The notes under the pieces were generated by a model that had not been told where the DNA came from, made no database searches, and saw only the letters and a list, made by a program, of their open reading frames with translations. Source: an archaeon GW2011_AR15 (lineage in GTDB: Archaea; Nanobdellota; Nanobdellia; Woesearchaeales; GW2011-AR15). Taken from it: 64,000 nt of DNA. The stretch covers positions 1,093,691-1,157,690 of the forward strand of contig CP010425.1 of the NCBI GenBank assembly GCA_000830295.1, read 5' to 3'. The translations under genes and the position numbers were made by a program. Position 1 is the stretch's first letter; every line of letters starts with the position of its first letter. Below are positions 9,112 through 51,065 of this stretch, in pieces.

Positions 9112-9116
9112 GAAAA

Positions 9117-10050: not shown

Positions 10051-10102
10051 TTCTTTATCAATACTCAACTTTTATAAAGCTGTTGATTTTTCAGTTTTTC
10101 AG

Positions 10103-11332: not shown

Positions 11333-11336
11333 AACT

Positions 11337-11450
11337 GGAAGCACAAAGAGTTTATCTTGAGAATTTTGAGGTCAGTCGGCGTATCGCCTAGGGCACAGCC
11401 CCTTGTTTTTATTTAGAGCCTCTCTCTCAACAAGACCTTTTTGTGCTTCC
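11337..11450. ncRNA. Candidate structured RNA or long hairpin element (~114 nt), unknown family
   Basis: Ends pair (GGAAGCACAAAGAG / CTTTTTGTGCTTCC, then TTGAGA/TCTCAA and GAGG/CCTC) around hairpins GGCG-TAT-CGCC and GGGC-ACA-GCCC. Confidence 0.45.
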
Positions 11451-11541
11451 TATAGTTTAATATGTTTTCTGCATTTATAAATGTAACCTAAGCAGTCTAG
11501 GTAAAAATGAAAAATATTATATTGTACAATAATAACACAAT

Positions 11542-11919
11542 ATGCAGATGAACCAGCCTGCTTTTGATTATAGTGAGAAAATAATCCCTGAGCTTGATAA
11601 GTTTTCAGCGAGGGTTGATGAGATTGCAGGAGACGACAAGCGCCTCAGGGTATCCGTTGAGATGGAGTCGCTTGAATGGCACACTTCTATGTCAAAAGTG
11701 AAAAGAGAGCTGCTGATCATGGCTACCCAGCTGAAGGAAATGCATAAAAAGATGGAGTCCATGAAAACGGAATTTATAGAAACTGTCATGGATTTCAGGA
11801 CAAAAACAGACAAAGAAAATTTCGAAAAGCTGAAAAGGAAGCTTGAGAGGTTTAATTTTGAAGAATACATGACAAAGGAAGAATTCAGAAAACTTCTAGG
11901 CAAGAGCAGCCCCGAGTGA
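11542..11919 (+). CDS. Hypothetical coiled-coil protein
   Basis: 125-aa charged helical ORF. Confidence 0.65.
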   Translation: MQMNQPAFDYSEKIIPELDKFSARVDEIAGDDKRLRVSVEMESLEWHTSMSKVKRELLIMATQLKEMHKKMESMKTEFIETVMDFRTKTDKENFEKLKRKLERFNFEEYMTKEEFRKLLGKSSPE

Positions 11920-12741
11920 TTTTATAGCCACTTCAATCATGTCATCTGTCGGCTCTTTTGTGGTTATCTTCTGGATGAGCAGGCCAGGGGATATAATTAT
12001 CTTAACCAGGATATTGTCAAAATGCTTTCCTGCAAATTTCAGGAATTCATATGATACTCCTGCAATTACGGGCAGGAGGAGTATCCTGATGCCCAGTCTC
12101 TGGAAATAATTTCCTGCATCTACGAAAGTGAAAAAGACTATTGAAAGCACAAATACAATAAGTATGAAATTTGTGCCGCATCTCGGATGGAGTGTTGAGT
12201 ATTTCTTGACATTTTTTACTGTAAGCTTTTCCTTATTCTCATAGCAGTATACTGTCTTGTGCTCTGCACCATGATACTGGAATATCCTTCTTATATCAGG
12301 GATAAATGAGATTAGCAACAGGTATATCAGGAATATAGCTATCCTTACTATTCCGTCTATCAGGTTCAGCGCTGCTCCTGTGCTGCCTGCAAGGAATCTT
12401 GCGATAAAAAGAGGCGCGGCAAAGAAAAGGAGTATGGTCATTCCTACTGACAGAATAACTGTAAGCGCAATTTCCCATGAGGACATAACCTGGTTATCTT
12501 CTCCCTGGGATTCAAGTGCTGAATATGATATGCTGCTAACACCGATTGAGAGGGTTTCAGCAAACCTGTACACCCCCCTTACTACCGGAATCTTCGGGAA
12601 CCAGTGCTTCGGCTCCTGTATTTTCACTATTTTTGTAGAAATCTTTTTATCGGGCCTTCTTACGCATAGGGCATACTTGTCGCTGGAGCGCATCATGACT
12701 CCCTCAATCAAAGCCTGCCCCCCAATAGTTAGTTCCGGCAT
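11896..12741 (-). CDS. DUF1385 family membrane protein
   Basis: GGQALIEGVMM, FQYHGAEHK, HPRCGTNF, TTKEP; start set at ATG 12741. Confidence 0.9.
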   Translation of the reverse strand: MPELTIGGQALIEGVMMRSSDKYALCVRRPDKKISTKIVKIQEPKHWFPKIPVVRGVYRFAETLSIGVSSISYSALESQGEDNQVMSSWEIALTVILSVGMTILLFFAAPLFIARFLAGSTGAALNLIDGIVRIAIFLIYLLLISFIPDIRRIFQYHGAEHKTVYCYENKEKLTVKNVKKYSTLHPRCGTNFILIVFVLSIVFFTFVDAGNYFQRLGIRILLLPVIAGVSYEFLKFAGKHFDNILVKIIISPGLLIQKITTKEPTDDMIEVAIKSLGAALA

Positions 12742-12918: not shown

Positions 12919-12991
12919 GGGGCTATGGTGTAGCTTGGTATCACACAAGGCTGGGGGTCTTGTAACCGCAGTTCGAATCTGCGTAGCCCCA
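12919..12991 (+). tRNA. tRNA-Pro (GGG)
   Basis: Acceptor GGGGCTA/TAGCCCC, anticodon arm CAAGG-CTGGGGG-TCTTG, T arm CGCAG-TTCGAAT-CTGCG; CCA not encoded. Confidence 0.95.
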
Positions 12992-19056: not shown

Positions 19057-19179
19057 GTGATGCAGGTTATTCCGATGTCCCTTATAAATTTTTCTGCCTG
19101 TAATTTTTCATGCATAATCCCGGAAGCTATCCGGCTTTCCCGTTTATACCAATTTAAAACCCTGCGGTATCTTCATGGC

Positions 19180-20712
19180 ATGGCAGAAAGGAACAGCAGG
19201 AACGAGCTTGCATGGGGGGCTGAAAACCAGGAGAAGCTCAGGAAATCAAAGGTCCTTGTTGCCGGCACAGATATACTCGGCCAGATGGTGCTTGGAGGAC
19301 TTGCGGGACTGGGCATAGGCAGCATACATCTCATGGACAACAGGAGGGTAAGCAGGGGAGATTACGATTTTCTGTGCTCACAGACCAATACAGATATCGG
19401 GCAGAAAAAAACCAGCCATATCAGAAGCACGCTGGAAAGCATAAATCCTTCTATCGATGCGGTTGTAGCTATCCATTCCAGATTCTCTGAAGCCCTGGCC
19501 TATCCTCTCCGGCCGGATATAATAGTGGACGCGACTAACGACCGGCTAACAAAGAAAAAGACTTCTGAATATGCAGCCAAGTACAGGATTCCTGTTATAT
19601 CTGCCTCTTCAGGGAGTTCAAAAGCTGCTGTTTCTGTTTTTTCTCCGGCTAGGAAAATAAAACCAATGCACAGCTCTGCTGACCTTGATTCCCTTCTCAT
19701 GGATGAATTCTATAAAGAGACGCAGTCTCCTGTGGCGGGCGGGGTCATAGCAGGGATTGCATGCGAGGAAGTGAGGAAGCAGATATTTGCGTATGATAAA
19801 AAAGATACTCCCCTCCAAAACAGGAAAAAAATCATGTATAACCTGAATTCTGAGTCCAGGACAGGAGTTTCTGAACCACAAAACATAGCTTCGTATTTCA
19901 GGCACAGGAAAATGCTGGTTGCCGGGGCAGGGGGCATTGGAACTTTTGTATGCCTTAATCTTGCTCTGCTTGGTGTAGGCTCTATTGATATAGTGGATTT
20001 TGATTCTGTCGAAGAGCACAACCTGAACAGGCAGCTCCTTTTCTACGGCAGGCAGGGTGAGCTGAAGGCTGAAGTGATGGCTGGCAGGATAGCCCTAATA
20101 GACCCTCATGCAGATGCTTCTGCTTTTTCCGCCAGGGTTGGGAAGATAGACATGAAAAAGGACAGGCCATGGCTGGAAGAGCTGTATGAGACAGACAGGA
20201 AGCTGTGGGAGCAGGAAGACGATAATACAAGAGAGCCTGATTATCCTGGGTTTGAGGATTATGTAAAAAAGAATTTCGGCTATCAAAAGGACAGGCTGCT
20301 TGATGAGAAGATCGCAGAAAAAGGCTATGATATGATTTTCGGCTGCCTTGACAACAAGTATGCAAGAATATGGCTCAACAATTTCTCTGTTAATAACAAA
20401 ATACCCTATATTGACGGCGGAACCGCTGCCAGATCCGGCCAGGTTGCTGTGTATGTTCCCGGAAACACAAGCTGCGTGGACTGCCAGCTCGACCTGAAGC
20501 ATCTCAAAAGGATTCCCATGCACTGCCATGAGGCAGATGCCAGCGTGGTCATGTCAAATATGGTTATAGGAAGCGCAATGGTCGGCGAGGCAGTAAGGAT
20601 ATTTTCCGGTGCAGCCCCCCTGAACGGGATTCTGAGATATGACCCCTTCTCTGATTCGCGGCTGTATATAGATAATAAAAGAACAAGGTTTGCAAAAAAA
20701 CACGGGTGCTGA
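19180..20712 (+). CDS. Tandem ThiF-domain E1-like (ubiquitin-activating-like) enzyme
   Basis: Domain 1 degenerate (VAGTDILG, DATND); domain 2 intact (GAGGIG, DFDSVEEHNLNRQ, CLDN, CVDC, IPMHC); start set at ATG 19180 after TTTAAAA. Confidence 0.85.
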   Translation: MAERNSRNELAWGAENQEKLRKSKVLVAGTDILGQMVLGGLAGLGIGSIHLMDNRRVSRGDYDFLCSQTNTDIGQKKTSHIRSTLESINPSIDAVVAIHSRFSEALAYPLRPDIIVDATNDRLTKKKTSEYAAKYRIPVISASSGSSKAAVSVFSPARKIKPMHSSADLDSLLMDEFYKETQSPVAGGVIAGIACEEVRKQIFAYDKKDTPLQNRKKIMYNLNSESRTGVSEPQNIASYFRHRKMLVAGAGGIGTFVCLNLALLGVGSIDIVDFDSVEEHNLNRQLLFYGRQGELKAEVMAGRIALIDPHADASAFSARVGKIDMKKDRPWLEELYETDRKLWEQEDDNTREPDYPGFEDYVKKNFGYQKDRLLDEKIAEKGYDMIFGCLDNKYARIWLNNFSVNNKIPYIDGGTAARSGQVAVYVPGNTSCVDCQLDLKHLKRIPMHCHEADASVVMSNMVIGSAMVGEAVRIFSGAAPLNGILRYDPFSDSRLYIDNKRTRFAKKHGC

Positions 20713-20715
20713 AAA

Positions 20716-21816
20716 ATGAAACTGCTTGATGATATACTCAGTAAATATTTTTACAAAACTGCAGGCTCTTCTGGCTCTGATGCCTATGATTCGTCAAGAC
20801 CTGATTATTCTGAGAGGTTCAATTTAAGGGATGACGGTCCGGAGTATATCATGAAGATGCAGAGATATCAGTACAGGTTCAGGGAGTGTCTTGAATCCAG
20901 GCTTGAAAACCCGTCTGAGCCCGGAGAATACAGCAGCAGGATGATAAAGAGCACGGCAGCAATGACAGAGTTCTGTAATGACTATGGCTTTGACGTATCT
21001 TCCTATATCAGGAGCCGCGCGTTTAATGAAAGGAGAGAGCTGCTGAAAGAAAAGCTCAGGAGGAGGATTGCCAGAGATTCCAACAGGGAGATAGACAAGA
21101 CAGTTGCAGATGCTGCAAAGAGCATTAAGATAACAGATTACGCCCTGAAAAAAGCGAATTATGCTGCAAGAAAAATTTCAGAGCTTTCATCAAAAGCAGG
21201 GAAGCGCGGTTCGTACGAACTAGGCATGTACATGCTGAGCAGCTCTTTAAAGAATGACGATGATGTCGTGACTGATATTTATGTTGCACAGGAGCAGGTT
21301 GTGACCCAGGGCAGGTGCAACATAACCCCTGAGGGTGTGATGAAGTCGCTGAGAGATACAAAAAAATCAGGGAAGAGGATAATAGGCTGGGCCCATTCCC
21401 ACGGCGGCTTCAGCACATTCTTCTCAGCAGAGGATGATGAAACCCTTCTCGGCAGGAAAAATATAGCAGAGAGCTCTTTTTTCCCGATGTTCCTTGAGAA
21501 AAAGGTTAAGGGGCATTTAGCGCCTGATGATGTGGTAAAATATTTCCTTGCACTTGTGGTAAATGAGAAGAACGATGAGCCGGCCTACAGGATAGTGGCT
21601 GTCAAGCCGAGGTATTTTGTTGAAAACGGGAGACTCAGGAAAAAGACAGAAGTAATAGACCTTGAGAGGACTATATCAGAAAACAGCGGGGAGAACTGGC
21701 CTGCTGCTGAGATAGCGGAAGAGAAAAGCAGGGAAATTGATGCAGAGATAGCCGGCCGCGTAAAGTTCCAGGACGGCACAAGATTAAGTGATTATCAGCC
21801 TGTTGTGACTGAATAA
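20716..21816 (+). CDS. JAB/MPN+ (JAMM) metalloprotease with N-terminal helical extension
   Basis: YELGMYML...IIGWAHSHGGFSTFFSAED = E..HxHx7SxxD; 3 bp after the E1 stop. Confidence 0.85.
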   Translation: MKLLDDILSKYFYKTAGSSGSDAYDSSRPDYSERFNLRDDGPEYIMKMQRYQYRFRECLESRLENPSEPGEYSSRMIKSTAAMTEFCNDYGFDVSSYIRSRAFNERRELLKEKLRRRIARDSNREIDKTVADAAKSIKITDYALKKANYAARKISELSSKAGKRGSYELGMYMLSSSLKNDDDVVTDIYVAQEQVVTQGRCNITPEGVMKSLRDTKKSGKRIIGWAHSHGGFSTFFSAEDDETLLGRKNIAESSFFPMFLEKKVKGHLAPDDVVKYFLALVVNEKNDEPAYRIVAVKPRYFVENGRLRKKTEVIDLERTISENSGENWPAAEIAEEKSREIDAEIAGRVKFQDGTRLSDYQPVVTE

Positions 21817-27378: not shown

Positions 27379-27609
27379 ATGGCAGAAGAGGAAATGAATT
27401 ACACAAAATACGAAAGAGCCAGGATGATCGGCGCAAGGGCACTGCAGCTTGCAATGGGGGCCCCTTTCATGATAAAGCTTTCAAAAAAAGAGATTGAAGA
27501 CATGAAATACAATCCCATCAAGATAGCAACGCTCGAGTTCGAGAAAAAACTTATTCCTATAGCTATCAGAAGGCCTTTGCCTGACACAAGAAGGAAAGCA
27601 GAAGCTTAG
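27379..27609 (+). CDS. rpoK: DNA-directed RNA polymerase subunit K (Rpo6)
   Basis: [31 protein letters not shown]. Confidence 0.95.
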
Positions 27610-27631
27610 ATTTCTGGTTTATTTTTCTGGT

Positions 27632-30223
27632 TTATTTTTCTGTTTTATTTTCTGTTTTGGTGTTTTCGCTTACAGCATAATTAAGCATCTGCATTGACAG
27701 GTTGTCGAGGAATGTCGTTTTCCTGGACACCGCCAGAGTAAATTCTTTAATATCAAGTATTGACGAGAGAGCATCGTATGCCGGGAACTTATCGCCGTTA
27801 TTAAACATGTAAAGCATATCTTCAAAGCTGTTGTGCCTGACATTCAGCAGGACTTTTGCATTATCTGTGCCGGGTTCTGTCTTGTATACAAAAAGCGGCT
27901 CTCCCCTGCCAAGAAGTGAGGTCTCTTTGCCGAGATAATACCCCATATTGTAGATTGCCAGCATTGTATTATCCCTATCCCTCCTGTCGTGGCCATAAGC
28001 AGGACTGCTGTGCTTCATAACCTCATATTCAATGCTGCCCTTATCATAATAGCCAAAGCATTTGATTATTTCGTCCCTGATAAAGTCTTTCAGCTTAGCT
28101 ATACCCGGGTATGTTGTTTCATCCGGGGTGTATTCTATTACAGTCGGGAACCGGGGCACGCCCTGTCTTTTGCCATTGCTCTGGTCCATTTTGCTTTTTA
28201 TTGTTTCCCCTACCCTTGCTATGCCATATATTGCCGCGCCTCCGACAGCCAGAGGAACCCCTATAGCCAGCACACCTGCCCCGACTGTCATGATTGTCAC
28301 TACTCCTGTGCCTATCAGAAAAGTCCCTCCAACCACAATTCCTGCGCCTCTTGCAACTCCTTTTACAGCATGCCCTGCTGCATATGCAGCATCCCTAGCT
28401 GCCCGGGTAGTCGCAGGTATTGTCCTTCTGAGTATTTCCATATCATAGTTCTTCATTTTGGTTGGTTTTGCGCTTTTTACAAGGTCTACAAGACCTCTGT
28501 CAAGCGGGTTCACCCTGATTATATTGCTCTTCTCCATCTGCGATATAAAAGGCGTCCATATGCTGTTAACCATGTAGCCGAATCTCGGGTTGTCAAGAAG
28601 AGAGACAAAATCCTCGAGCGTGATATTTTTGCTGTTTACATTGCTGAACATTACTGTTTTTGATATCCTGTCATACACTCCTGCTATTGTATCTTCGTTC
28701 TTGTATTCCCTGTTCTTTCCGTATGTGTGGTAAATCTTGGCAAAGTCAACAAGGTATTTCAGCGCGGCATTCTTTTCTGACATGCCCCCTTTTTTCATAA
28801 AATCAGGGAGCTGCACTACAAAATCCAGGTATTCCTTCTGGAGCTTTCTTATTATCCTGTTGTAAAGCGGGCTGGACTCGTTTACCTTATCCCAGAGCCA
28901 TCTGGTTACTTCAAGCTCTGGTGCTTCTATGGAAGCCTCTACCCCAAGCATTGAACCGGTGAACAGGTTCCTGTCAACCTTGTCTATGTAAACTCCCTCT
29001 TTCAGGAACTCCATGTTTCCTGTGAAAGAATGGCGCCGAGGCCTGAGAGGCATGCCGAAGAAGCCATGGAAATCCTTATCTTCTATCTCTGCCATGTAAA
29101 GATATCTCCCCTTCAGCCCTGGCTTTCTTTTTGGTGCCTCTATCCTTGCTTTGGCCTGCAATTCTTTACTGAATTCTTCACTGTAATCAACAAGCTTATC
29201 TCTGCTTCCGAGCAGCATCTGGATAGCGGCCGCTTCTTTCTGGCCAATAACAAGTGTAATGCCTCCGTCCAGACACTCATGCTTTTCTGCTTCAGATGTC
29301 GGGACATAGCGCACTTTCCTGTTTTTTATTGCATCTTCCAGCGATACTGCTTTTCCTGCAGTTGACATGAAAAACTTTGCCTCAAAGAAACTGTCACGGT
29401 CTGCGCCGAAAGTTTTTTCCTCGTAATCAAAATCATCATCTTTCTCCGGCCTATAGTGCGCCAGTGCCGAAATTATCCTTGGCCTCAGGTATTTCACATG
29501 CGCCCTTTCATTGTGGTCATACTTAGATGCCGCTTTTGCCAGGAATTTCGCAACTGCCTGGTCTGCTATGGTCTGTTTAATATGCTTTTCCTTGCCGTTG
29601 TCCAGGCCTGTAAATTTCTCATCGTATATCTGGTATTTTGTATTCATGACTATCTCCGTGGCCGGCAGGAGTGAGTAGTCCCTTATGGTATCAAGATAAC
29701 GGTCATGGTAGAGCACTGTTATATCTGAGCGGATTTCACTTTTCTCATCCATATTGAGTACATAGTCTGAATAGAAGGTCCCGTAGCTGCTGTAGTATAC
29801 AGAATTCATAATCGGTGTTTTCGGAACATAAAAATCAAACTGGTATCCTGAAAGTGAAACCGAGTCCTTAATCAGTATGTTCTTCTCTTTAAACTTAAAT
29901 TCAGGAGTGTCTTCAAGGAATCTCTGCCTGTAGACAGATGTCTGAAGGTCCTTGTTGACTTCATTAAGGTGCTGTATAGGGAATCCTTTGATTCCCTTCA
30001 GCTGTTGCAGAAGCTCCAGGAGCTCTCCATTCCCGATATATACTGCATCCGGTGCAATTTTCAGCGCCTTTGAGCCGATGAATCTCCTGTCTGTAACATA
30101 CTCTATCTCCCCTCCCGTCCGGCCTGCAAGTTTTACAAGCTCTTCAAGGTCAAGTGCTGTACCGTCCAGCTTCTTCACTCCCTCAATCTTCATGAGTTGA
30201 GATATCAATTGCTTGTCATTCAT
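27632..30223 (-). CDS. Large hypothetical protein with Hsp90-middle-like modules and a Gly-rich membrane segment
   Basis: 863 aa; FFMSTAGKAVSLEDA, MFSNVNSKNITLEDF, LLNVRH; hydrophobic AGIVVGGTFLIGTG...GGAAIYGIA. Confidence 0.6.
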   Translation of the reverse strand: MNDKQLISQLMKIEGVKKLDGTALDLEELVKLAGRTGGEIEYVTDRRFIGSKALKIAPDAVYIGNGELLELLQQLKGIKGFPIQHLNEVNKDLQTSVYRQRFLEDTPEFKFKEKNILIKDSVSLSGYQFDFYVPKTPIMNSVYYSSYGTFYSDYVLNMDEKSEIRSDITVLYHDRYLDTIRDYSLLPATEIVMNTKYQIYDEKFTGLDNGKEKHIKQTIADQAVAKFLAKAASKYDHNERAHVKYLRPRIISALAHYRPEKDDDFDYEEKTFGADRDSFFEAKFFMSTAGKAVSLEDAIKNRKVRYVPTSEAEKHECLDGGITLVIGQKEAAAIQMLLGSRDKLVDYSEEFSKELQAKARIEAPKRKPGLKGRYLYMAEIEDKDFHGFFGMPLRPRRHSFTGNMEFLKEGVYIDKVDRNLFTGSMLGVEASIEAPELEVTRWLWDKVNESSPLYNRIIRKLQKEYLDFVVQLPDFMKKGGMSEKNAALKYLVDFAKIYHTYGKNREYKNEDTIAGVYDRISKTVMFSNVNSKNITLEDFVSLLDNPRFGYMVNSIWTPFISQMEKSNIIRVNPLDRGLVDLVKSAKPTKMKNYDMEILRRTIPATTRAARDAAYAAGHAVKGVARGAGIVVGGTFLIGTGVVTIMTVGAGVLAIGVPLAVGGAAIYGIARVGETIKSKMDQSNGKRQGVPRFPTVIEYTPDETTYPGIAKLKDFIRDEIIKCFGYYDKGSIEYEVMKHSSPAYGHDRRDRDNTMLAIYNMGYYLGKETSLLGRGEPLFVYKTEPGTDNAKVLLNVRHNSFEDMLYMFNNGDKFPAYDALSSILDIKEFTLAVSRKTTFLDNLSMQMLNYAVSENTKTENKTEK

Positions 30224-32880
30224 CTGCTTCCACCGCCGAAAAAAGAAAATTTCCCCATTTTTGTGTAATTATATATCAGGAAGTTGGTCATGTTCTGGTT
30301 ATTTGTGCGCAGCTGAAAGAAGTTTATGAGGGGGTTCCCCACATATGTGCTGCAGAGCTGATTGAAGTATCCGACTGCCTCTTCACTGATTTTCTCGAGA
30401 AGGACAGAATATTCCGGGTTTCCCGAATCGATTTTCGCACCAGAGTATTCATCATCAAATATCATAGGCAGGTCAGGGGATTCAACAACAATTTCAAATC
30501 CTGAAACTGGCAGCTCTATAGTGGTTTCAGATACCTTTCTGTTATAATGCTTGAACTGGACTGTGTTTTTGCCGAATCTTTCAACGTCCCTTGAAATGCT
30601 CATAGACAGGTCGTATTGCGAGCCATCTATATCAAGGCTGACATTTTTGCCTGGGTTGTATGGGCTTCTCCAGAATGAATAGTATTCCGGCTTTCTTTCT
30701 TCAAATCTTCTTCTGGGGGTGTAATCATGCGGCGCCACTTCATATCCCATCTCCCCAAGCATGTCTGCGCAGAACTGCACTATCTTAGTGCCCTCATTCA
30801 TCAGGACAATCCTGTTCGACATGGTCTCATAGGTCTCATCTTTCCCAACCCAGCTGTCATAGAACAGCAGGCCCCTGTCCCTCTTCGGAGAATCCTCTAT
30901 GTCCTTTGCCAGCTTATTTATTGAAACCTTATCCTCACTTGTTGTTTTGAATATAGGAAATTCCCGGAATGAAGTGATAAGTTCTTCTCCTGAATTCCTG
31001 AATGATTCAGGGCTGTTTATTATGAAATCCCTGATCATGGCTTCCATTCTTTCGAAATCTGTCTTCTCTGAATCCCTGCTCCTTTCTGTGCTGTATGTCG
31101 GCTTGCTCTTTACTTTGAGGAAGGCATTTACATACAGCTCAGCTGCTGCCTTCTTCAGGTCAGCCATGAAATTCTCATTTTCCTTCTCTCCAGGCACAAG
31201 GTCTGTCATGGCATCTATAAGCCTCAGCTCGTCATTGTTAACTATACCGTAGAAAGGCAGGTCAAGTATCTCAGAAAATTTTATTTTCTTCACTTCACGG
31301 CCGTCATTAAGAATAGTTACCAGTCCATTTGCGGATTTGTTGACAGGTATTGCAAGTTCTCCTCTTGTCCTGCCATAGTCGAAGGATATCTTAAAGAACT
31401 GGTTCTTATCATAGTATGGCAGGATCGGGCTGAGCCTGATCTGCCTTTCAAACTGGTAAGCGCTGTATTCTACTGCAAGCGAATTTGTCAGATTGATAAA
31501 CTCTACTTTTTTTTTTGCCTCTTTAAATCTCTTCTCAATAAGGGCCATGACTACATCTTCCTTGCCTGAAAACGGCAGGTATTCTGCAAGCAGTTGCTCT
31601 CCTGTTGAGATAATTGAGAAAATATTTTTTATAGACCTGTGGAACAGTTCTTTTGACTTATCATACTCTCCTCTCACTGCCTGCAGTTCCGGGATGTACA
31701 CTAGTGGAATTCCTTCTTTCGGGAAGGGGAATGCTTCAGTTGTGTAGTATACTCTGGCTGTCTTGCTGCCTTTATTTTTCAGCAAAGCCTTGACAAGGCC
31801 TTCGTATGAATATGCATCCTTTCCTGTATGGTCCTGGAACAGCGGTGCAGAAAGCAGCGCTTTTATGGCTTTTTCCGAGATATGCTCTGTCTGGAACCCA
31901 AACATATTGCTGTATAAGACGCTGAATCCTGCTATCCTTGCTATCTCCTTTTTTTGTTTCTCGTATGCCATGTCCCCTTTTGTCGGCTTCTTGTATTTGG
32001 ACATGCTCCCTATATCGCTGAAATTCTTCCCAAGCTCAGCAAGGAATTCATCCACGTAGCCCCTTATAGCCATCCTCTCCTTATAAAAAGAGCCGGAGAT
32101 GACTTTGCCGCTGATATCCTTTTCAAGATCGTCAAAAGCAGCCATGCCTGACAGTGTTACCCCCGGGGCTACCTCAACAGCCGTGCTTGAGACTTTCTTT
32201 CCGAAATTCGTTATATCTATCCTGTGCTTTTCTGCGGGGTTCTCGAGTGCCAGTATTCCCTCAAGCCCGTCTGCAGAAAACCTGTGCTGGAAGCTTGAAT
32301 GGGGAAAATTAAACCCGACTGAGATGTCCTTTACATTGTTGTATTTTACTGGAATAGGTGAATACAGCTGGTCTTTTATTGCTTTGTATATAGGCCTGCG
32401 CTGCTCCGGGAGGACGCCCCTTGAAAGGTCATTCGAGAAGTATATCAATGTCGTTTCTTTCTTTTTTGGCCTGATGGTTTTTACAGCCAGGTCTTCGGCC
32501 TCTTTGCCTGCATCAAGGTTCGCTGCAAAGTGCTTTCCATTCCAGTGCGTATAGACATTCATGTTTTCTGCCCCGCCTATACCTATTATTCCTGCCACAG
32601 TTTTCTGGAATGCGTTGGAAACATTGAACAGCTCCTCCTCTGAGCCGTATATCCTGAACGGGTCTTCTATAATCTCCGGAGGTATCCCCTTCCCGTCAAA
32701 TTCAATTCTCGTGGAAAATACGCTTTCGGAGATATTGAAGAAACTCGCATTATTCCTGACTGCAATCTCATATAGGGAAAAAATAGATTCTGTCCATTCT
32801 GAAAGCGTTTCTTTAAGCAGCTTCCTTCTCCTTGCTGCTTCATCAATCCCTATTTTAAGCGTGCCGATTGCCTTTGACAT
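30220..32880 (-). CDS. Large protein with a degenerate GHKL-like N-domain and repeated Hsp90-middle-like modules
   Basis: 886 aa; SLYEIAVRNNA and FDGKGI in place of ExxxN and DxGxG; three beta-rich repeats. Confidence 0.6.
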   Translation of the reverse strand: MSKAIGTLKIGIDEAARRRKLLKETLSEWTESIFSLYEIAVRNNASFFNISESVFSTRIEFDGKGIPPEIIEDPFRIYGSEEELFNVSNAFQKTVAGIIGIGGAENMNVYTHWNGKHFAANLDAGKEAEDLAVKTIRPKKKETTLIYFSNDLSRGVLPEQRRPIYKAIKDQLYSPIPVKYNNVKDISVGFNFPHSSFQHRFSADGLEGILALENPAEKHRIDITNFGKKVSSTAVEVAPGVTLSGMAAFDDLEKDISGKVISGSFYKERMAIRGYVDEFLAELGKNFSDIGSMSKYKKPTKGDMAYEKQKKEIARIAGFSVLYSNMFGFQTEHISEKAIKALLSAPLFQDHTGKDAYSYEGLVKALLKNKGSKTARVYYTTEAFPFPKEGIPLVYIPELQAVRGEYDKSKELFHRSIKNIFSIISTGEQLLAEYLPFSGKEDVVMALIEKRFKEAKKKVEFINLTNSLAVEYSAYQFERQIRLSPILPYYDKNQFFKISFDYGRTRGELAIPVNKSANGLVTILNDGREVKKIKFSEILDLPFYGIVNNDELRLIDAMTDLVPGEKENENFMADLKKAAAELYVNAFLKVKSKPTYSTERSRDSEKTDFERMEAMIRDFIINSPESFRNSGEELITSFREFPIFKTTSEDKVSINKLAKDIEDSPKRDRGLLFYDSWVGKDETYETMSNRIVLMNEGTKIVQFCADMLGEMGYEVAPHDYTPRRRFEERKPEYYSFWRSPYNPGKNVSLDIDGSQYDLSMSISRDVERFGKNTVQFKHYNRKVSETTIELPVSGFEIVVESPDLPMIFDDEYSGAKIDSGNPEYSVLLEKISEEAVGYFNQLCSTYVGNPLINFFQLRTNNQNMTNFLIYNYTKMGKFSFFGGGSR

Positions 32881-32882
32881 TT

Positions 32883-35030
32883 TTATTTAACCCCGTATTC
32901 CAGTTTCAGGATTTTTGAATACATCTTTGCAGCCCTTCCCGGGTGCCCTGCATTTGACAGGGAAATGAATCTTCTGTTTCTCTCGTCATTATAATTAATA
33001 AAAAGCGTCCTCTGCCTTCCCTCAATTAATCTCCCTTCCTTTCCGACAGACGCAAAAAGCTCCCTGCTGATATTGTTCCAGTTCCCGTTGCCCTTGTAAT
33101 ACATCTCACCGCCTCCATTGCCGCTGGCAACAAGAATTTTCTCATATTCTATGCTGCCTGAAGCTGTAAAATCAGCAAACCTCACGTAATCAAAAGGAAG
33201 CTGCCTGACAAGGTAATCCAGGAATTTCTCTTCCCTGTCTGTAGGTTCAATTTGATTTGGGATGAAAAACAGGCCATTTATGTTCTCCGAGGATTCAAAG
33301 TTGAATATCCCCATGCTTCCCAGTTTTCTTGCATGCTGCGTGCCTGCCTTTATCACTGGAATGCTGTATTCGCCAAGTTTTTTTGCTATGCCTGTGTTAT
33401 CCTCCTGGCCCTCTGTGAAAATACAGCCGAATTCCTTCCTTACCCTGATAAGGTCATCAAGGGAGCATGACTTTGCTTCCTGGCTTTCAGCAAGGGGGAT
33501 GAATTTTGATTCGTATGCAAGTGAGTTTGTATAGCTCCCTACCAGCCTGATGGCTTTTTGCCTTATGCGGTTCTTATAAAAATCAGGGCTGATTATTTTA
33601 ACAGCCAGCCTGTTTCTGAAAGGGCCCATCGCACTTCCCTGCTTTACCCTCGAATCAATTGAGGTTACAAGCTCGAGTGCGGCAACTGCTATATCTGGTG
33701 ACAGGGGCAGCACTGGCTTTTCTTTTGAGGCGTCAATGGCTTCAAAGAATTTTGTGTATAGCCTCTTTTCCATCTCAGGAATCTGCTGGAGGATTGTCTT
33801 GTACTGCTTTCCTTTCTCCCCCTCCCTTGCTATCCCTTCTCTTGTCAGGTCATGGTGAATCATGGGAGAATCAATATAGATAGTGATATTGCTGCTTGGC
33901 AGGTCTTTTTCCTTGCCTTCCCACAGCAGAATCCCCTTGTTCCTTACTTCTATGGCAGTGTGCTCTTTTGTTTCTTTTCCTATGACCATTGATATTTTTG
34001 TGCCGTTGAATTCCTTGTCCAGCCTTATGCTGTCAAGCGCATCCAGCAGTTTCGCCCTGTATGAACCGTCTACTTTATCCTTATGCGCGAGTATCATTTT
34101 AGGGTTAAAGAAAGCCTGCGATCTCCAGCCGTATCTGGAAAGAGACCTGAATCCTTCAGGAACCACCCCCCTGAATTCAGGGGATACAAGTTTTGCAATT
34201 ATCCTGTCAAGCTCTGATTCATGGCTCGCTGCGATGTTCAGCCTTACAAATTCCGGCTTCGGCCCACTCACAATTTTATAGCTCCTGTATCCCTGGCCGT
34301 CATCTGCAAATCCCTTGTCATCATTGTTTATATCAAGGAATTCCCAGCCTTCGCCTTCCTCTTTCCGGGGGTCAAACGGGATTACTCCAAAATATAATGG
34401 GGCCTCAATTTTGCTCGTCCACCTCTGGATTACGCCCAGGACACTCTCAACAAACTTATCTTCCCTGTCGCTTGGTATCGGGTTAAACATCTGCATTATG
34501 GAAGTGCCGAAATTCTCAGGAATTACCCCCTTTGTGCCCTCTGACGACCAGAAATCCTCTTTTGTGAATATGTACTGCTCTATTCTCGGAAAATTTTTCT
34601 GGGGATTGTTGTCTGTGAATACAAGCCTGTATACAGGTGTTTCTCCCTTTGGGATACCCATCTCTGTCCAGTCCTTTTTCTCCCCGAACTTGGGCGTGGT
34701 GTTTACAATAGTGTATTTCCAGTCAAGGCCGAGCTTGCACATTGTTCCTATGCCGTACTTCCCGGTCTGTGTAAAGTCCTTGTCTTTTGTGCTTGAGAAC
34801 AGGACAAGATAATTTTCTTTCAGCACACTGTAGTCCATGCCTATCCCGTTATCATTATACATAACAAAAGGGTATACTATATTTTCAGACCGTATGCTTG
34901 TGAACCCGACAATTATCTCAAGCCTGCTTGATTTCGCATCCTGCATATTCTGTATCTCCTCCCTTGGGGCAAGCTCAGGCGGAACGTGCTTGATTATTTT
35001 CTGGTATTCTGCAAGGAGTTTCGTGTCCAT
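32883..35030 (-). CDS. GHKL (Hsp90/MORC-like) ATPase
   Basis: REEIQNMQDA, DNGIGM, FSSTK, TGKYGIG, FGT Bergerat-fold motifs. Confidence 0.85.
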   Translation of the reverse strand: MDTKLLAEYQKIIKHVPPELAPREEIQNMQDAKSSRLEIIVGFTSIRSENIVYPFVMYNDNGIGMDYSVLKENYLVLFSSTKDKDFTQTGKYGIGTMCKLGLDWKYTIVNTTPKFGEKKDWTEMGIPKGETPVYRLVFTDNNPQKNFPRIEQYIFTKEDFWSSEGTKGVIPENFGTSIMQMFNPIPSDREDKFVESVLGVIQRWTSKIEAPLYFGVIPFDPRKEEGEGWEFLDINNDDKGFADDGQGYRSYKIVSGPKPEFVRLNIAASHESELDRIIAKLVSPEFRGVVPEGFRSLSRYGWRSQAFFNPKMILAHKDKVDGSYRAKLLDALDSIRLDKEFNGTKISMVIGKETKEHTAIEVRNKGILLWEGKEKDLPSSNITIYIDSPMIHHDLTREGIAREGEKGKQYKTILQQIPEMEKRLYTKFFEAIDASKEKPVLPLSPDIAVAALELVTSIDSRVKQGSAMGPFRNRLAVKIISPDFYKNRIRQKAIRLVGSYTNSLAYESKFIPLAESQEAKSCSLDDLIRVRKEFGCIFTEGQEDNTGIAKKLGEYSIPVIKAGTQHARKLGSMGIFNFESSENINGLFFIPNQIEPTDREEKFLDYLVRQLPFDYVRFADFTASGSIEYEKILVASGNGGGEMYYKGNGNWNNISRELFASVGKEGRLIEGRQRTLFINYNDERNRRFISLSNAGHPGRAAKMYSKILKLEYGVK

Positions 35031-35031
35031 T

Positions 35032-35991
35032 TTACCTCCTGCCCGGGTAGTATATCTGCGGAGACCTGTCTATTCCGCTGTCTGCCAGCATTTCTGCAAG
35101 CTTGTCTGCAATTGCTTTCTCATGCACTGCATATATTGCCCCAAAATTGTAGCCTATGCTGTCCGGAAGTTTTGCCAGAATCTCTTCTTTAACAGGAGGA
35201 AGCATCATTGAGTTGAAATCAGGCACTGCAGTTTTCCTCTGTTTTATGTCTTCCCCTATTTCCTGGTAAGGAAAAACTGCAACCATGGCGTCATTCTCCC
35301 CTATAAAATCAGCAATCCAGTCGGGGTTTGCAGTCTGGGAAAAGTAAAAATATCCAAGGTTGCCAAAAGATATATTCCTGATCCTTATGTCCCCTGCCAT
35401 CTCTCTAATGTGGGGCCTGTGTCCGTAGCTGTCAAGGGCGTTATAGAAACTAAATCCATCCAGGGCCATGTTAGTCTTAAGGAATCCGCTGAATTCTGGC
35501 GTGGGCTCTACGGTTTTTTTCTTTTTGTTTACTTTGAAGAACCTGTCCAGCCTGCCCTGCCTGTGTTCTATATCAGCTTTGATGTGCGAAAATGTCGCGT
35601 ATGGCGTCATAATCTCAGCATCCAGAAGGTATGTTGCATAGCCTTCTGCATCAGGGTTTATTTTCCATCTCCACTGGGAATTGAAGTACCCCTTTATTTT
35701 ACTATCACCAAGTATGTCCGGGCTGCCCTTGGCATTCCTGAAATATTCTGCATAGTATATCACCTGCGGCATGCCTGTTGCAGCCATTATTGAGAGCCCG
35801 TTATCTGTATCAAGAGCATATCTGGCAACACTGCTTTTTGTGTTGCTGAATATATATTCAAATCTCTCTATTGCGTCATCCCTTTCAGGAAAATAGCTGT
35901 CGAGCGTCACTCCGGCCAGTATGCTGAGAAGCTGAGACTTGTATCTCTCAAATTCTTCATCTGCTATTATTTTTGTTATCAGCTCTGCCAT
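35032..35991 (-). CDS. Hypothetical protein (GHKL operon)
   Basis: 319-aa ORF ending 1 bp before the ATPase start; GGAGG SD within its 3' end. Confidence 0.75.
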   Translation of the reverse strand: MAELITKIIADEEFERYKSQLLSILAGVTLDSYFPERDDAIERFEYIFSNTKSSVARYALDTDNGLSIMAATGMPQVIYYAEYFRNAKGSPDILGDSKIKGYFNSQWRWKINPDAEGYATYLLDAEIMTPYATFSHIKADIEHRQGRLDRFFKVNKKKKTVEPTPEFSGFLKTNMALDGFSFYNALDSYGHRPHIREMAGDIRIRNISFGNLGYFYFSQTANPDWIADFIGENDAMVAVFPYQEIGEDIKQRKTAVPDFNSMMLPPVKEEILAKLPDSIGYNFGAIYAVHEKAIADKLAEMLADSGIDRSPQIYYPGRR

Positions 35992-36024
35992 CGCTTTCCC
36001 GTTAAAAAGTATAAAAAAGAAAAT

Positions 36025-37332
36025 TTATCCCTTCAGCTGCTTCCTGTTGCCTGGGCCTATCTTATATTGGCTTCTTGGCATCCTGTCCGGGACTATGTGA
36101 AGGGGATCCTCTCCAAGCATGAGAGTGGCGCCGCTTTCCAGCCTGAGGAATATCTGCCTGTTATCATCTACAAGCTGCCTTAGCTCAATCATTGAAGAGC
36201 GCAGTGTGGCATAGAGTGTTTCTTCCCTTTCAATATAGTTGTAGTTGCCCTGCTGTATTCCCTTCAGTATATCAGCTGACGCTGAGCCAAGTATCTGGGC
36301 AGGACCTGTCTGGAGCAGATCAATCGCGCTGTTTGTCCTTACTTTCCTTGATTCCTCAAGCGTTTTTTCATAGAAGTGATGCATTGCAGAATAGGCTTTC
36401 ATAAGCCCTTCCCTGGCATTGAAAAGCTGCCTGAATACCATTTTTGCAGATGCAGCCTGGCTCTCTCCTGTAACAAGCTCCCTCAGCACTTCATAATGCT
36501 CTTTTGTCTTTCCTCCTTTCTGGAAGACCTCATGTGCATTGCTTATCCCAAGCTGGCTGAATGCCTCTGCTCTTGCATTGCTCAATATCTCATATTTTTC
36601 TGAGGCGAGATCCACATTCTTTTCTGCTGTTGAAAGCACTGCAGCAAGATATGCCTGCTGGTCAACTATGAAATCCTGGAGTTTCCTGATAACTGTTTCC
36701 TGGTTGCCCATCTCATTAATATATCCAAGGTCTGTGTCCAGAAGCTCATAGGAAATTTCTGTTAATGTTTTGCCGCCTTTGAATAGTGGCTTAGGATCAA
36801 AAAGGCTTGCCAGCCCCTTTTCTTTTACATTGTCTACATATTTCTCAAGCCCGCGCTTTGAAGGAAGGCTGTCTCTGGCTTTGTCAACGAGTGCCATCGG
36901 ATTTATCTTCTTTTTAACGGCACTGACTCCCTCATCAATGCTTTCTCCCACATATGGAAGCATTGCAATCCTGGTCTGGGCATATGTGTACGGAGATTTC
37001 CTGTTGAATTCTTTCTGGAGTTTGTTTCTCTTTTTGGAAAGGTCTCTCATTGCATCTGTGGAATTTGAGACTGTCTTGACAATCTTCTCAAGATCAGGAA
37101 TTGAGTCCACCCATGCTATAAGTATGTTTGCAGCGTCATCATCTGCCTTGCCTGTTGGTGTAACCACAACCTGCTCATGCCTCAGCCGGTATCCTCCTAT
37201 CTCAAAATCCCCGTTTCCTTCGAATTTGGGAAAAAGCTCATACTCAATGCCCTTTGCTTCTTCCATAGCAGAAGCTATCTTCTGGAATATCTCATCAAAA
37301 TTGTATGTTTTGCCATCAATTACAGTTGTCAT
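36025..37332 (-). CDS. Helical/coiled-coil hypothetical protein (first gene of the GHKL operon)
   Basis: 435-aa ORF, SD GGGGGAG, long amphipathic helices. Confidence 0.75.
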   Translation of the reverse strand: MTTVIDGKTYNFDEIFQKIASAMEEAKGIEYELFPKFEGNGDFEIGGYRLRHEQVVVTPTGKADDDAANILIAWVDSIPDLEKIVKTVSNSTDAMRDLSKKRNKLQKEFNRKSPYTYAQTRIAMLPYVGESIDEGVSAVKKKINPMALVDKARDSLPSKRGLEKYVDNVKEKGLASLFDPKPLFKGGKTLTEISYELLDTDLGYINEMGNQETVIRKLQDFIVDQQAYLAAVLSTAEKNVDLASEKYEILSNARAEAFSQLGISNAHEVFQKGGKTKEHYEVLRELVTGESQAASAKMVFRQLFNAREGLMKAYSAMHHFYEKTLEESRKVRTNSAIDLLQTGPAQILGSASADILKGIQQGNYNYIEREETLYATLRSSMIELRQLVDDNRQIFLRLESGATLMLGEDPLHIVPDRMPRSQYKIGPGNRKQLKG

Positions 37333-37493
37333 TAAAGTCTCCCCCTCACATTATTTTTATTAGCCTAATTATATGACGGGAGAATCTCAGGCTATATTTA
37401 AAGCTATGGTGGTATTATTCACTCTATAGTGATGTCTTTTTGCAGTTAGAGATAACTAGAAATTTTATAAAGTAATTGTTTATTCTGATGCCT

Positions 37494-39611: not shown

Positions 39612-39685
39612 GGGGTTATGGTGTAGCTTGGCTATCATCCGTCGCTTGGGACGACGAGACCCAGGTTCAAATCCTGGTAACCCCA
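39612..39685 (+). tRNA. tRNA-Pro (TGG)
   Basis: Acceptor GGGGTTA/TAACCCC, CGTCG-CTTGGGA-CGACG, CCAGG-TTCAAAT-CCTGG. Confidence 0.95.
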
Positions 39686-50212: not shown

Positions 50213-51022
50213 TTACTTATACTCTTCAATAAATCTTCTCAGCCTTTTGATGTACTCCTCAGCTTCAGCGAAATACCTGTCGTAATCCTTTCCGCTTATT
50301 TCTTTTATCTCCCTGTACTCCACTTTCTTGCTGAGGTCATAGAATTTCTTTGCTGTATTTGCATACTTCTTCTCAATAAGGCCTGCCTTTACAAGCTTTT
50401 CATTTATCATATCTGCAACGTGGGCAGGCGAAGGGGGTATCTCATTTATTCTCATGAGCGCTGCATGGCTTGCATCAATGACTGCCCAGTAAAGGTCCAT
50501 CACTGCTGAGATCATCCTGAACTTTGAGCCATGGAGGGTCTGGGAGCTTTTTGAGTAGTAGTTCCAGACTGATTCCTGGGAAGGCCTTATCCTTCCCTGG
50601 TAAAGCAATAGCTGCAGCGGCCTGAAGAACTCCCTGTCTGCTATAGGCACGCCGTCCCTAAGTATGTTGATGGCAATAGGGTCTCCGCTTCTTACAAATT
50701 CCCAGAATGATGTATATTTGAATGTTGTTACATGCAGCCTCTTTGAAATTTTCCCGACAAGGTTCTGCACTATTATCCTGTATGTCTGCACAAACTCCCT
50801 GCTGACAAATATGCTGACATCATCAATTATGACCAGGATATCAATATCGTGCGCCTCTTTGCTCTTTCTTGCCCTGCTGCCGAAAAGTATTATCCCCTTT
50901 ACGAAGTTTCCCATCTCTCTTGTAAGCTCTGCTGAGAACCTGTAGGCGTGCTTGAGATCATCATCCGGATACTGGCTCTTGTTCCTGTTGTCAAGATCCT
51001 TCTCCTTTATTTCAGCTTCCAT
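50213..51022 (-). CDS. Minimal nucleotidyltransferase fused to a HEPN-like domain
   Basis: ILFGSRAR...HDIDILVIIDD; helical C-terminus LYWAVIDASHAALM; start ATG 51022 with GAGGA SD. Confidence 0.8.
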   Translation of the reverse strand: MEAEIKEKDLDNRNKSQYPDDDLKHAYRFSAELTREMGNFVKGIILFGSRARKSKEAHDIDILVIIDDVSIFVSREFVQTYRIIVQNLVGKISKRLHVTTFKYTSFWEFVRSGDPIAINILRDGVPIADREFFRPLQLLLYQGRIRPSQESVWNYYSKSSQTLHGSKFRMISAVMDLYWAVIDASHAALMRINEIPPSPAHVADMINEKLVKAGLIEKKYANTAKKFYDLSKKVEYREIKEISGKDYDRYFAEAEEYIKRLRRFIEEYK

Positions 51023-51065
51023 TATGTTTCTCCTCTTGTTTTTGAGTTTATTAATCTTTTGATTT

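What the first reader, a model, noticed from the sequence alone, without database searches (positions are those of the whole stretch)
27632..37332. Five-gene, ~9.7 kb operon built around divergent Hsp90/GHKL paralogs (candidate novel system)
Seen: co-oriented genes of 435, 319, 715, 886 and 863 aa with gaps of 33, 1 and 2 bp and a 4-bp overlap. The 715-aa protein has intact GHKL motifs. The 886-aa protein starts with a degenerate version (FDGKG, no ExxxN). The 863-aa protein has no ATPase domain but has a membrane segment. The first gene is a long helical protein. No nuclease, helicase or methylase motif is recognisable. Established: GHKL ATPases (Hsp90, MORC, MutL, sacsin) work as dimers and occur in conflict systems. 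Inference: an active/inactive ATPase heterocomplex tethered to the membrane, acting as a specialised chaperone, a defence sensor or a host-interaction machine.
Basis: partly seen in the sequence, partly recalled or inferred. Interest (0 to 1): 0.8.

Follow-up and report, generated by a model that had tools for sequence, protein, structure and literature searches.

The report
Orphan archaeal operon with GHKL ATPase
A small archaeal genome carries a species-specific five-gene insertion whose proteins have no detectable relatives anywhere; one is an intact Hsp90/MORC-type ATPase and one is membrane-anchored, but its function remains unknown.

Summary
Five co-oriented minus-strand ORFs (435/319/715/886/863 aa) lie exactly as described, far longer than chance ORFs.

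The 715-aa protein is a GHKL ATPase with all three nucleotide motifs intact. The 886-aa protein has degenerate motifs; only ESM Atlas neighbours call it GHKL-like. The 863-aa protein has one Gly-rich 46-residue hydrophobic hairpin, and its Hsp90-like fold is only weakly hinted.

The operon is a 10-kb insertion between Rrp42 and NAD kinase, which lie within 1.3 kb in 7 of 8 same-family genomes. Its composition and codon usage are native.

All five proteins are sequence orphans in every search run. None matches PADLOC, NCBIfam or PDB. Co-occurrence elsewhere therefore cannot be shown, and paralogy among the three large proteins is not supported by sequence.

Best guess (0.35): a lineage-specific, membrane-anchored, ATP-driven conflict module. 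The nearest known relative is the GHKL head of phage rIIA, and only at that domain. Structure prediction failed, and the complex job never ran.

The parts
37333..37410 (-). Upstream region of the first gene. It holds a TATA-like A/T box about 65 nt before the ATG and a purine-rich Shine-Dalgarno-like run 6-14 nt before it.
   Evidence: Sequence read. Promoter function is inferred, not tested.
36025..37332 (-). Gene 1 (P0001, 435 aa). Soluble orphan protein, pI 6.2, no TM segment.
   Evidence: No family hit. The three weak hits in 300 phylum genomes are an M29 peptidase, a glutamine synthetase and a MacB/FtsX permease, so they are spurious.
35992..36024 (-). 33-nt spacer with a T4-C-T6 run and an A/T box about 23 nt before the gene-2 ATG. 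It could be an attenuator/terminator or an internal promoter.
   Evidence: Sequence read. Function is inferred only.
35032..35991 (-). Gene 2 (P0002, 319 aa). Soluble orphan protein, pI 5.3.
   Evidence: One chance-level hit (E 0.0099) in 300 phylum genomes. No similarity to two rIIB proteins. The AF2 model is unusable, pLDDT 38.
32883..35030 (-). Gene 3 (P0003, 715 aa). GHKL ATPase of the HATPase_c_3 type, followed by about 600 residues with no family assignment.
   Evidence: It is the best hit of my rIIA N-terminal HMM among 6514 own-genome ORFs (E 3.3e-4, residues 24-122).
34731..34961 (-). Bergerat-fold nucleotide-binding core of P0003 (residues 24-100), with the N-box, DxGxG and GxxGxG motifs intact.
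   Evidence: Pfam match, motifs read, alignment to the rIIA profile.
30220..32880 (-). Gene 4 (P0004, 886 aa). Candidate GHKL-like pseudo-ATPase and a sequence orphan.
   Evidence: ESM Atlas neighbours. Exhaustive phmmer over 1.84 billion representatives found only itself and two repeat proteins. Residues 1-480 found only itself at E<=10.
32572..32769 (-). Degenerate motif region of P0004 (residues 38-103). The catalytic Glu/Asn box is out of register, the second motif reads F-D-G-K-G instead of DxGxG, and GxxGxG is kept.
   Evidence: Sequence; pattern test.
27632..30223 (-). Gene 5 (P0005, 863 aa). Orphan protein with large N-terminal (about 620 aa) and C-terminal (about 190 aa) domains on either side of a membrane hairpin.
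   Evidence: Only itself in the word-indexed search. Four chance-level hits in 300 genomes. ESM Atlas neighbours are weak.
28211..28348 (-). Gly-rich hydrophobic stretch (residues 626-671). It is long enough for two TM helices with almost no loop, and has Arg/Lys on both flanks.
   Evidence: Hydropathy scan and sequence. The topology (both large domains cytoplasmic) is inferred from the positive-inside rule.

Best explanation
This is a lineage-specific accessory operon inserted into a conserved housekeeping neighbourhood. It probably encodes a cytoplasmic, membrane-anchored, ATP-driven protein machine.

Shown:
- P0003 carries a complete GHKL (HATPase_c_3) nucleotide-binding site.
- P0005 carries a single Gly-rich hydrophobic hairpin.
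- The five genes are packed as one unit.
- They are absent from the syntenic site of relatives.

Inferred:
- P0003 works as GHKL ATPases do, by ATP-dependent closure of an N-terminal dimer clamp.
- P0004 is a non-catalytic GHKL-like partner or scaffold.
- P0005 holds the assembly at the inner face of the membrane, or is the output that perturbs or protects the membrane.
- P0001 and P0002 are adaptors.

The role I think most likely is biological conflict: sensing or resisting a virus or mobile element, in the manner of abortive infection or membrane protection. I favour this because non-housekeeping HATPase_c_3 proteins of prokaryotes and phages (MORC-like, Tiamat, rIIA) act in conflicts, and because extreme divergence with patchy presence is typical of such genes.
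For: - Operon anatomy, with a plausible promoter and ribosome-binding site.
- Intact GHKL motifs and a Pfam hit above the cut-off.
- The P0003 GHKL head is nearer to phage rIIA than any other own-genome protein is (E 3.3e-4 against 0.064 for the next). PHROGs gives RIIA at E 0.0056, and hhalign gives 94% probability over residues 20-112.
- The ESM Atlas neighbours of P0004 that carry a family are all GHKL-type. P0004 and P0005 share the same best structural neighbour cluster (819 aa, 112 members).
- TM hairpin in P0005.
- Insertion: Rrp42 and NAD kinase lie 290-420 bp apart in 6 same-family genomes and 1.24 kb apart in a seventh, out of 8. They are 10.1 kb apart here.
- The genes are real and maintained. 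Codon usage is typical of the genome (percentiles 3-45). Near-identical copies occur in other assemblies and in 4 laid DNA runs.
- No match to any family of known function other than GHKL.
- The conflict role of Tiamat and MORC-type GHL ATPases comes from the abstract and section 21 of preprint 10.64898/2026.09.30.754977. That of rIIA comes from passages of PMC7824862.
Against: - No homologue exists, so there is no comparative evidence of co-occurrence, of linkage to defence genes or of a defence-island context.
- The neighbours are translation, exosome and proteasome genes. PADLOC finds nothing beside the operon.
- No recognisable effector domain (nuclease, protease, pore-former).
- The GHKL nature of P0004 rests on one source, the ESM Atlas. 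Profile methods fail, and its DxGxG motif is shifted.
- No mobile-element hallmarks or flanking repeats, and native composition.
- No expression evidence.
Confidence: 0.35

Rival explanations
1. Virus-derived rII-like module. The operon would be a captured or domesticated piece of a virus of this lineage. Its GHKL protein would work like phage T4 rIIA, a membrane-associated protector against host or prophage abortive infection, or a superinfection-exclusion factor.
For: - The only family-level neighbour of P0003 among phage proteins is RIIA.
- P0003 (715 aa) and P0002 (319 aa) are of similar size to T4 rIIA (725 aa) and to the 331-aa rIIB of phage TunaTartare.
- rIIA homologues are 677-886 aa with variable C-termini (PMC7824862 passage).
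- Orphan status and native composition fit genes from a virus adapted to this host.
Against: - Similarity stops at the GHKL motifs, residues 20-122. The rest of the rIIA N-terminal profile does not align.
- P0002 shows no similarity to two rIIB proteins, and the gene order is reversed.
- No relative of four of the proteins in IMG/VR (P0003 was not scanned there), and for P0003 only E 0.2-0.3 in 50,697 phage records.
- No integrase, capsid or att repeats at the locus.
Confidence: 0.15
2. Specialised chaperone or membrane-protein quality-control machine: an Hsp90-like ATPase with a non-catalytic partner tethered to the membrane, serving a lineage-specific client.
For: - ESM Atlas structural neighbours of P0004 and P0005 include HtpG clusters.
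- The location is cytoplasmic and membrane-anchored.
- The operon has native codon usage and sits among housekeeping genes.
Against: - The Pfam HSP90 model finds nothing in the genome at E<=10.
- My own HtpG profile (3 sequences) hits none of the five proteins.
- The Hsp90 catalytic-loop motif I thought I saw is at chance level: rank about 65 of 6519 sequences scanned, E 49.
- A housekeeping chaperone would be expected in congeners, but the site is empty there and P0003 is not found in 40 relatives.
Confidence: 0.15
3. DNA-acting GHKL system (MORC/MutL/topoisomerase-like), for example a DNA clamp or compaction module linked to restriction of foreign DNA.
For: - HATPase_c_3 is the MORC-type GHKL family.
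- GyrB/Topo IV-B clusters appear among the structural neighbours of P0004 (TM 0.29-0.30).
- A same-family relative carries a paired HATPase_c_3 locus beside a HerA-like ATPase.
Against: - No Toprim, S5, nuclease, helicase, methylase or DNA-binding family is detected in any of the five proteins, even in fragments at E<=10.
- The membrane hairpin has no obvious role in such a system.
- The relative's paired-GHKL proteins are unrelated to P0004 and P0005.
Confidence: 0.1
4. The genes are not a functional unit: a decaying remnant, or five unrelated orphan genes that happen to be adjacent.
For: There is no conservation outside one species-level population and no RNA evidence.
Against: - Five intact ORFs of 319-886 aa, against a maximum of 226 aa in shuffles.
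- Genome-typical codon usage in frame.
- At most 3 amino-acid differences among the cluster members compared (0-3 per comparison).
- Intact catalytic motifs.
- 1-2 bp spacers and a 4-bp overlap.
Confidence: 0.05

Closest known systems
Phage T4 rIIA (RIIA lysis inhibitor, PHROG 612) with rIIB
   Same: - An N-terminal GHKL head of the same subtype. The alignment matches RE..N..DA, DxGxG, the S-T-K segment and GxxGxG.
- Similar protein length (715 aa against 677-886 aa).
- A partner gene of about 320 aa next door.
- Membrane association of the system. For rIIA this comes from the T4 record's note 'membrane integrity protector'.
   Different: - Similarity ends after about residue 122.
- P0002 is not rIIB-like, and the gene order is opposite.
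- The operon is cellular, archaeal and five genes long.
- rIIA/rIIB has no equivalents of P0004 or P0005.
Tiamat and sacsin-like GHL ATPases (defence protein TmtA; SACS family)
   Same: - An Hsp90-like HATPase_c_3 head. NCBIfam's sacsin ATP-binding model is the only other weak hit of P0003 (E 0.016, below the cut-off).
- Atlas neighbours of P0004 include clusters in which 10-30% of members carry the SACS family.
- A conflict role is documented for Tiamat (preprint abstract).
   Different: - No DUF3684 core and no NOV_C/PD-(D/E)xK or other effector domain is detected.
- No PADLOC model hits.
- Tiamat is a single large protein, not a five-gene operon with a membrane protein.
Hsp90/HtpG
   Same: The GHKL superfamily, and HtpG clusters among the predicted-structure neighbours of P0004 and, weakly, P0005.
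   Different: The Pfam HSP90 model and my own HtpG profile do not match. There is no shared middle or C-terminal domain signal.
Prokaryotic MORC/paraMORC GHKL modules
   Same: The HATPase_c_3 family, and presence as an accessory gene cluster.
   Different: No S5-fold, nuclease or helicase partner is detected.

Membership tests
GHKL / Bergerat ATPase, HATPase_c_3 (P0003) | Family HMM above the curated threshold | tested here: met
   PF13589 at 26.1 bits against a cut-off of 25, E 9.3e-6, residues 24-100.
GHKL / Bergerat ATPase, HATPase_c_3 (P0003) | Motif I ExxxNxxD, motif II DxGxG, motif III GxxGxG | tested here: met
   E24/N28/D31, D60-G62-G64 and G90-G93-G95 in the sequence. P0003 matches the pattern that 5 of 1341 ORFs match.
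GHKL / Bergerat ATPase, HATPase_c_3 (P0003) | ATP binding and hydrolysis | not testable with these tools
   Needs biochemistry.
GHKL / Bergerat ATPase (P0004) | Family HMM or profile match | tested here: not met
   No Pfam hit, whole or in fragments, at E<=10. No hit to my rIIA N-terminal or HtpG profiles. No similarity to P0003.
GHKL / Bergerat ATPase (P0004) | Catalytic motifs I and II | tested here: not met
   No ExxxN in residues 1-60, and F-D-G-K-G in place of DxGxG. GxxGxG is kept at residues 97-102.
GHKL / Bergerat ATPase (P0004) | Bergerat fold | tested here: inconclusive
   ESM Atlas: all feature hits that carry a family are HATPase_c_3 (0.95-0.96). TM by query is 0.29-0.38, and 0.36-0.67 by the neighbour row, over residues about 5-470. 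I obtained no usable model of my own.
Hsp90/HtpG | HSP90 middle and C-terminal region (PF00183) | tested here: not met
   No match in the whole genome at E<=10, while the model hit 5 of 14 control genomes. My own HtpG HMM gave no hit.
Hsp90/HtpG | Middle-domain catalytic loop with Arg | tested here: inconclusive
   The resemblances I saw by eye in P0003, P0004 and P0005 score at chance level with a loop HMM built from three HtpG sequences.
rIIA (PHROG 612) | Match across the conserved N-terminal region of about 300 residues | tested here: not met
   Only HMM positions 48-143 of 357 align. PHROG E 0.0056 over 43 residues. The full-length rIIA HMM gives E 2.
rIIA (PHROG 612) | Adjacent rIIB partner | tested here: not met
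   P0002 against two rIIB proteins: hhalign probability 0.2-0.4%.
Tiamat (TmtA) | Defence-system HMM, DUF3684 core and a C-terminal nuclease domain | tested here: not met
   No PADLOC model at E<=1. That PADLOC 2.0 holds a Tiamat model is recalled, not checked. No Pfam DUF3684 or DUF3883. The architecture is taken from the preprint.
MutL | DNA_mis_repair transducer domain and a MutL C-terminal domain | tested here: not met
   No such Pfam hit in P0003, P0004 or P0005. The genome has other GHKL genes elsewhere, which I did not identify individually.

The most novel reading that the evidence does not exclude
The operon encodes a previously unseen three-part GHKL-fold machine: one active ATPase, one pseudo-ATPase and one membrane-hairpin protein of related fold, plus two adaptors. 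It would be a new class of archaeal membrane-tethered conflict or remodelling system. It would be remotely akin to unannotated large protein families of Myxococcota and Vulcanimicrobiota that only language-model and structure comparison can link.
Probability: 0.15. Interest if true: 0.7.

Novelty: new variant of a known kind. Interest (0 to 1): 0.42.

Why it matters
If the reading is right, this is a GHKL-ATPase module with an architecture not seen before: an active and a degenerate ATPase plus a membrane-hairpin protein. It sits in a streamlined 1.16-Mb archaeal genome, where 9.7 kb of private genes is a notable investment. It could extend the set of Hsp90/MORC-type conflict systems to archaea. 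It could also tie in large unannotated bacterial families that sequence searches cannot reach. Its value is limited for now because nothing comparable exists elsewhere to test generality, and no function is shown.

Tried and rejected
1. AlphaFold2 without an alignment: P0003 gave pLDDT 32 and P0002 gave pLDDT 38. Both models are unusable, so I ran no fold search.

2. Complex prediction for P0003 residues 1-470 with P0004 residues 1-480 was never accepted. The job was not sent on. The heterodimer is therefore untested.

3. My by-eye idea was that P0003, P0004 (twice) and P0005 carry the Hsp90 middle-domain catalytic loop seen in three HtpG sequences. A loop HMM ranks the P0004 site about 65th of 6519 sequences scanned (E 49) and does not pick the P0003 site. 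I rejected it as evidence.

4. Full-length rIIA HMM (59 sequences): P0003 scores E 2.

5. hhalign of P0001, P0002, P0004 and P0005 against my rIIA N-terminal and HtpG alignments found nothing.

6. Other GHKL loci of relatives (L017-L026) are unrelated to the five proteins.

7. Weak genome-search hits were rejected:
- P0001 hit an M29 peptidase, a glutamine synthetase and a MacB/FtsX permease.
- P0002 had one hit at E 0.0099.
- P0005 had four hits at E 9e-4 to 4e-3 among 300 genomes.

8. P0004 residues 1-480 found nothing in 101 genomes of the phylum of G046, whose record title reads Eremiobacteraceae. That does not bear on the Atlas lead.

9. The P0004 hits P0006 and P0007 are a tandem-repeat protein and a TPR-like repeat protein, matched in many short stretches. 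I judged them spurious.

10. No RNA holder was listed among the sequencing runs.

11. No joint skipping the island appeared among the 15 joints listed for 4 DNA runs; 2 more joints were not shown.

12. No flanking direct or inverted repeats beyond chance-like short matches.

13. Taxon naming: the ProRS scan gave at most 60% identity to MAGs titled Nanoarchaeota, Woesearchaeota, Aenigmatarchaeota, Bathyarchaeia and 'Methanosarcinales'. The taxon is not settled; 'DPANN-like' is an inference.

14. Paper searches for DPANN+GHKL and for rIIA+Hsp90+GHKL+membrane returned nothing describing such an operon (listings only).

Full report
**What is there**

The five ORFs lie on the minus strand exactly as described: 36025-37332 (435 aa, P0001), 35032-35991 (319 aa, P0002), 32883-35030 (715 aa, P0003), 30220-32880 (886 aa, P0004) and 27632-30223 (863 aa, P0005). 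The spacers are 33, 1 and 2 bp, followed by a 4-bp overlap (translations). Chance does not give such ORFs: in 30 shuffles of the window the longest stop-to-stop ORF averaged 163 aa and never exceeded 226 aa.

Codon usage of all five genes is typical of the genome. They fall at percentiles 3-45 of distance among genes of similar length, with GC3 of 0.46-0.52 against a genome median of 0.47. Upstream of gene 1 lie an A/T box about 65 nt and a purine-rich run 6-14 nt before the ATG. The 33-nt spacer after gene 1 holds a T4-C-T6 run and an A/T box about 23 nt before the gene-2 ATG. Gene 1 may therefore be attenuated or separately transcribed; that is inference only.

**The proteins**

P0003 is a GHKL ATPase. 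Pfam HATPase_c_3 scores 26.1 bits against a cut-off of 25 (E 9.3e-6, residues 24-100). The sequence shows E24-x3-N28-x2-D31-A, D60-x-G-x-G64 and G90-x2-G-x-G95. The remaining 600 or so residues match nothing, even as fragments at E<=10.

P0004 has F-D-G-K-G at residues 61-65, no ExxxN before it, and G-x2-G-x-G at 97-102. It fails the motif pattern that picks P0003 and the ORFs I take for GyrB and Topo VI-B (5 of 1341 ORFs match), and it fails every profile test. The ESM Atlas supports a GHKL-like fold:
- The top feature hits (0.97-0.98) are unannotated Myxococcota and Vulcanimicrobiota clusters.
- All hits that carry a family are HATPase_c_3 (0.95-0.96).
- The structural neighbours over residues about 5-470 are HATPase_c_3, HtpG and GyrB clusters. 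TM is 0.29-0.38 by query and up to 0.67 by the neighbour row.

That is one source and a lead, not proof.

P0005 has no ATPase motif. It has one hydrophobic, Gly-rich stretch at residues 626-671 with Arg/Lys on both sides. I read this as a two-helix hairpin that leaves both large domains in the cytoplasm (positive-inside rule; inference). Its Atlas neighbours are weak: features at most 0.86, and TM 0.24-0.29 to HtpG clusters. Its best structural neighbour is the same 819-aa cluster as for P0004.

P0001 and P0002 are soluble, Cys-free orphans.

BLASTP and hhalign find no similarity among P0003, P0004 and P0005. 'Paralogs' is therefore not shown at the sequence level.

**Context**

The window is archaeal housekeeping DNA:
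- proteasome alpha, SBDS, Rrp4, Rrp41 and Rrp42 immediately downstream of the operon's end;
- NAD kinase upstream of it;
- EF-1alpha, EF-2, eIF2 subunits, ProRS, PheRS and proline-synthesis genes around.

The genome is a single contig of 1,157,790 bp, 96.8% complete.

Rrp42 and NAD kinase lie on the same strand 290-420 bp apart in 6 same-family genomes (G001, G003, G004, G005, G006, G007) and 1.24 kb apart in a seventh (G008), out of 8. In the eighth (G002) they are rearranged. In 4 genomes of other families they lie on different contigs. Here they are 10.1 kb apart, so the operon is an insertion specific to this lineage.

There are no flanking repeats and no integrase at the locus. Composition is native: the tetranucleotide distance is at the 48th percentile of genome windows, and GC is 0.445 against a median of 0.427. 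PADLOC finds no defence gene beside it.

The sequence is present, essentially unchanged, in other assemblies and runs:
- The 90%-identity clusters hold 2-5 members, which differ from the window's protein by 0-3 residues.
- Four laid DNA runs give island pieces without differences, apart from one single-contig change at 27705.
- Contigs bridge the gene-1/NAD-kinase junction.
- No joint skipping the island is listed.
- The holders are groundwater and soil metagenomes.

**Orphan status**

- P0003: only itself among 7999 scored candidates of the 5.8-billion-protein index. It was not found in 40 relatives or in genome contigs.
- P0004: exhaustive phmmer over 1.84 billion representatives gave itself and two repeat proteins that I judge spurious. 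Residues 1-480 gave only itself at E<=10.
- P0005: only itself, plus chance-level hits in 4 of 300 phylum genomes.
- P0002: one chance-level hit in 300 genomes.
- P0001: three weak hits in 300 genomes, which Pfam shows to be unrelated enzymes.
- No paralogue in the own genome.
- No relative of P0001, P0002, P0004 or P0005 in IMG/VR; P0003 was not scanned there.
- Nothing in PDB sequences, NCBIfam or PADLOC.

**Nearest known**

Among phage families P0003 weakly matches RIIA (PHROG 612, E 0.0056). The best tblastn rows in phage records are mostly rIIA genes (4 of 6 rows, from two phages), at E 0.2-0.3.

I built an N-terminal rIIA profile from 59 sequences: 56 IMG/VR loci plus T4, TunaTartare and RHEph10. 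P0003 is its best hit among 6514 own-genome ORFs (E 3.3e-4, against 0.064 for the next). Only profile positions 48-143 align, which is the nucleotide-binding core. hhalign agrees.

P0002 is not rIIB-like. The Pfam HSP90 model finds nothing in the genome, and my own HtpG profile fails. The Hsp90 catalytic-loop resemblance I thought I saw is at chance level.

Tiamat, as described in the preprint, is a GHL ATPase with a DUF3684 core and a nuclease (abstract and section 21). Those parts are not detected here.

**What it most likely does**

Shown: an operon-like unit, a competent GHKL site, a membrane hairpin, and lineage-specific insertion.

Inferred: an ATP-driven clamp (P0003) working with a non-catalytic GHKL-like partner (P0004), held at or acting on the membrane through P0005, with P0001 and P0002 as adaptors. 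A conflict role is my preferred reading (0.35). It rests on the known roles of non-housekeeping HATPase_c_3 proteins and on the extreme divergence and patchy presence of these genes. Against it stand the housekeeping neighbourhood, the lack of any effector domain and the complete lack of comparative evidence.

Rivals, with my confidence in each:
- a virus-derived rII-like membrane-protection module (0.15);
- a specialised chaperone (0.15);
- a DNA-acting GHKL system (0.10);
- no function (0.05).

**Limits**

Both AlphaFold2 jobs, run without alignments because no relatives exist, gave unusable models. The complex prediction was never accepted, so the heterocomplex is untested. No RNA run was available. 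The helical nature of P0001 was not checked. The taxon is not settled by my calls. 'DPANN-like' is an inference from genome size and from the many small-genome families in the group.

Noticed in passing
window 27380-27608 (+): A small ORF just after Rrp42, converging on the operon's end with 23 bp between the stop codons. By eye it looks like RNA polymerase subunit K/Rpo6. I did not test this with any tool.
   Followed up: no
window 19057-21816 (+): A 551-aa protein with tandem ThiF/E1 domains hits PADLOC 'E1-E2' (Cap2-like) models at E 1.8e-19. It is followed by a 366-aa Prok-JAB protein. This may be a ubiquitin-like conjugation or deconjugation pair.
   Followed up: partly
window 60146-63946: A low-GC end of the window (0.28-0.38) carries a tyrosine recombinase (Phage_integrase), a weak SwaI-like endonuclease hit and an Eco57I-type Type II methyltransferase. 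It looks like a small restriction-modification island.
   Followed up: partly
L017 (G006:C19) 6850-12358: A same-family relative has two adjacent, co-oriented HATPase_c_3 proteins of 545 and 711 aa. Both have intact GHKL motifs and they are true paralogues of each other (hhalign 96.5%). A divergent HerA/DUF87 ATPase gene lies beside them. They are unrelated to P0004 and P0005.
   Followed up: partly
window 50213-51241 (-): A 342-aa nucleotidyltransferase-domain protein hits the PADLOC candidate family PDC-S09 (E 7.3e-9).
   Followed up: no
window 27609-27660: The 3' end of gene 5 is a short imperfect tandem of a T-rich unit on the plus strand. It encodes a Lys/Glu/Asn/Thr-rich tail.
   Followed up: no
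window 12919-12991 and 39612-39685: Two tRNA-Pro genes (anticodons GGG and UGG). The second lies 2.3 kb upstream of the operon, beyond NAD kinase and an aminotransferase, and is not at the insertion boundary.
   Followed up: no
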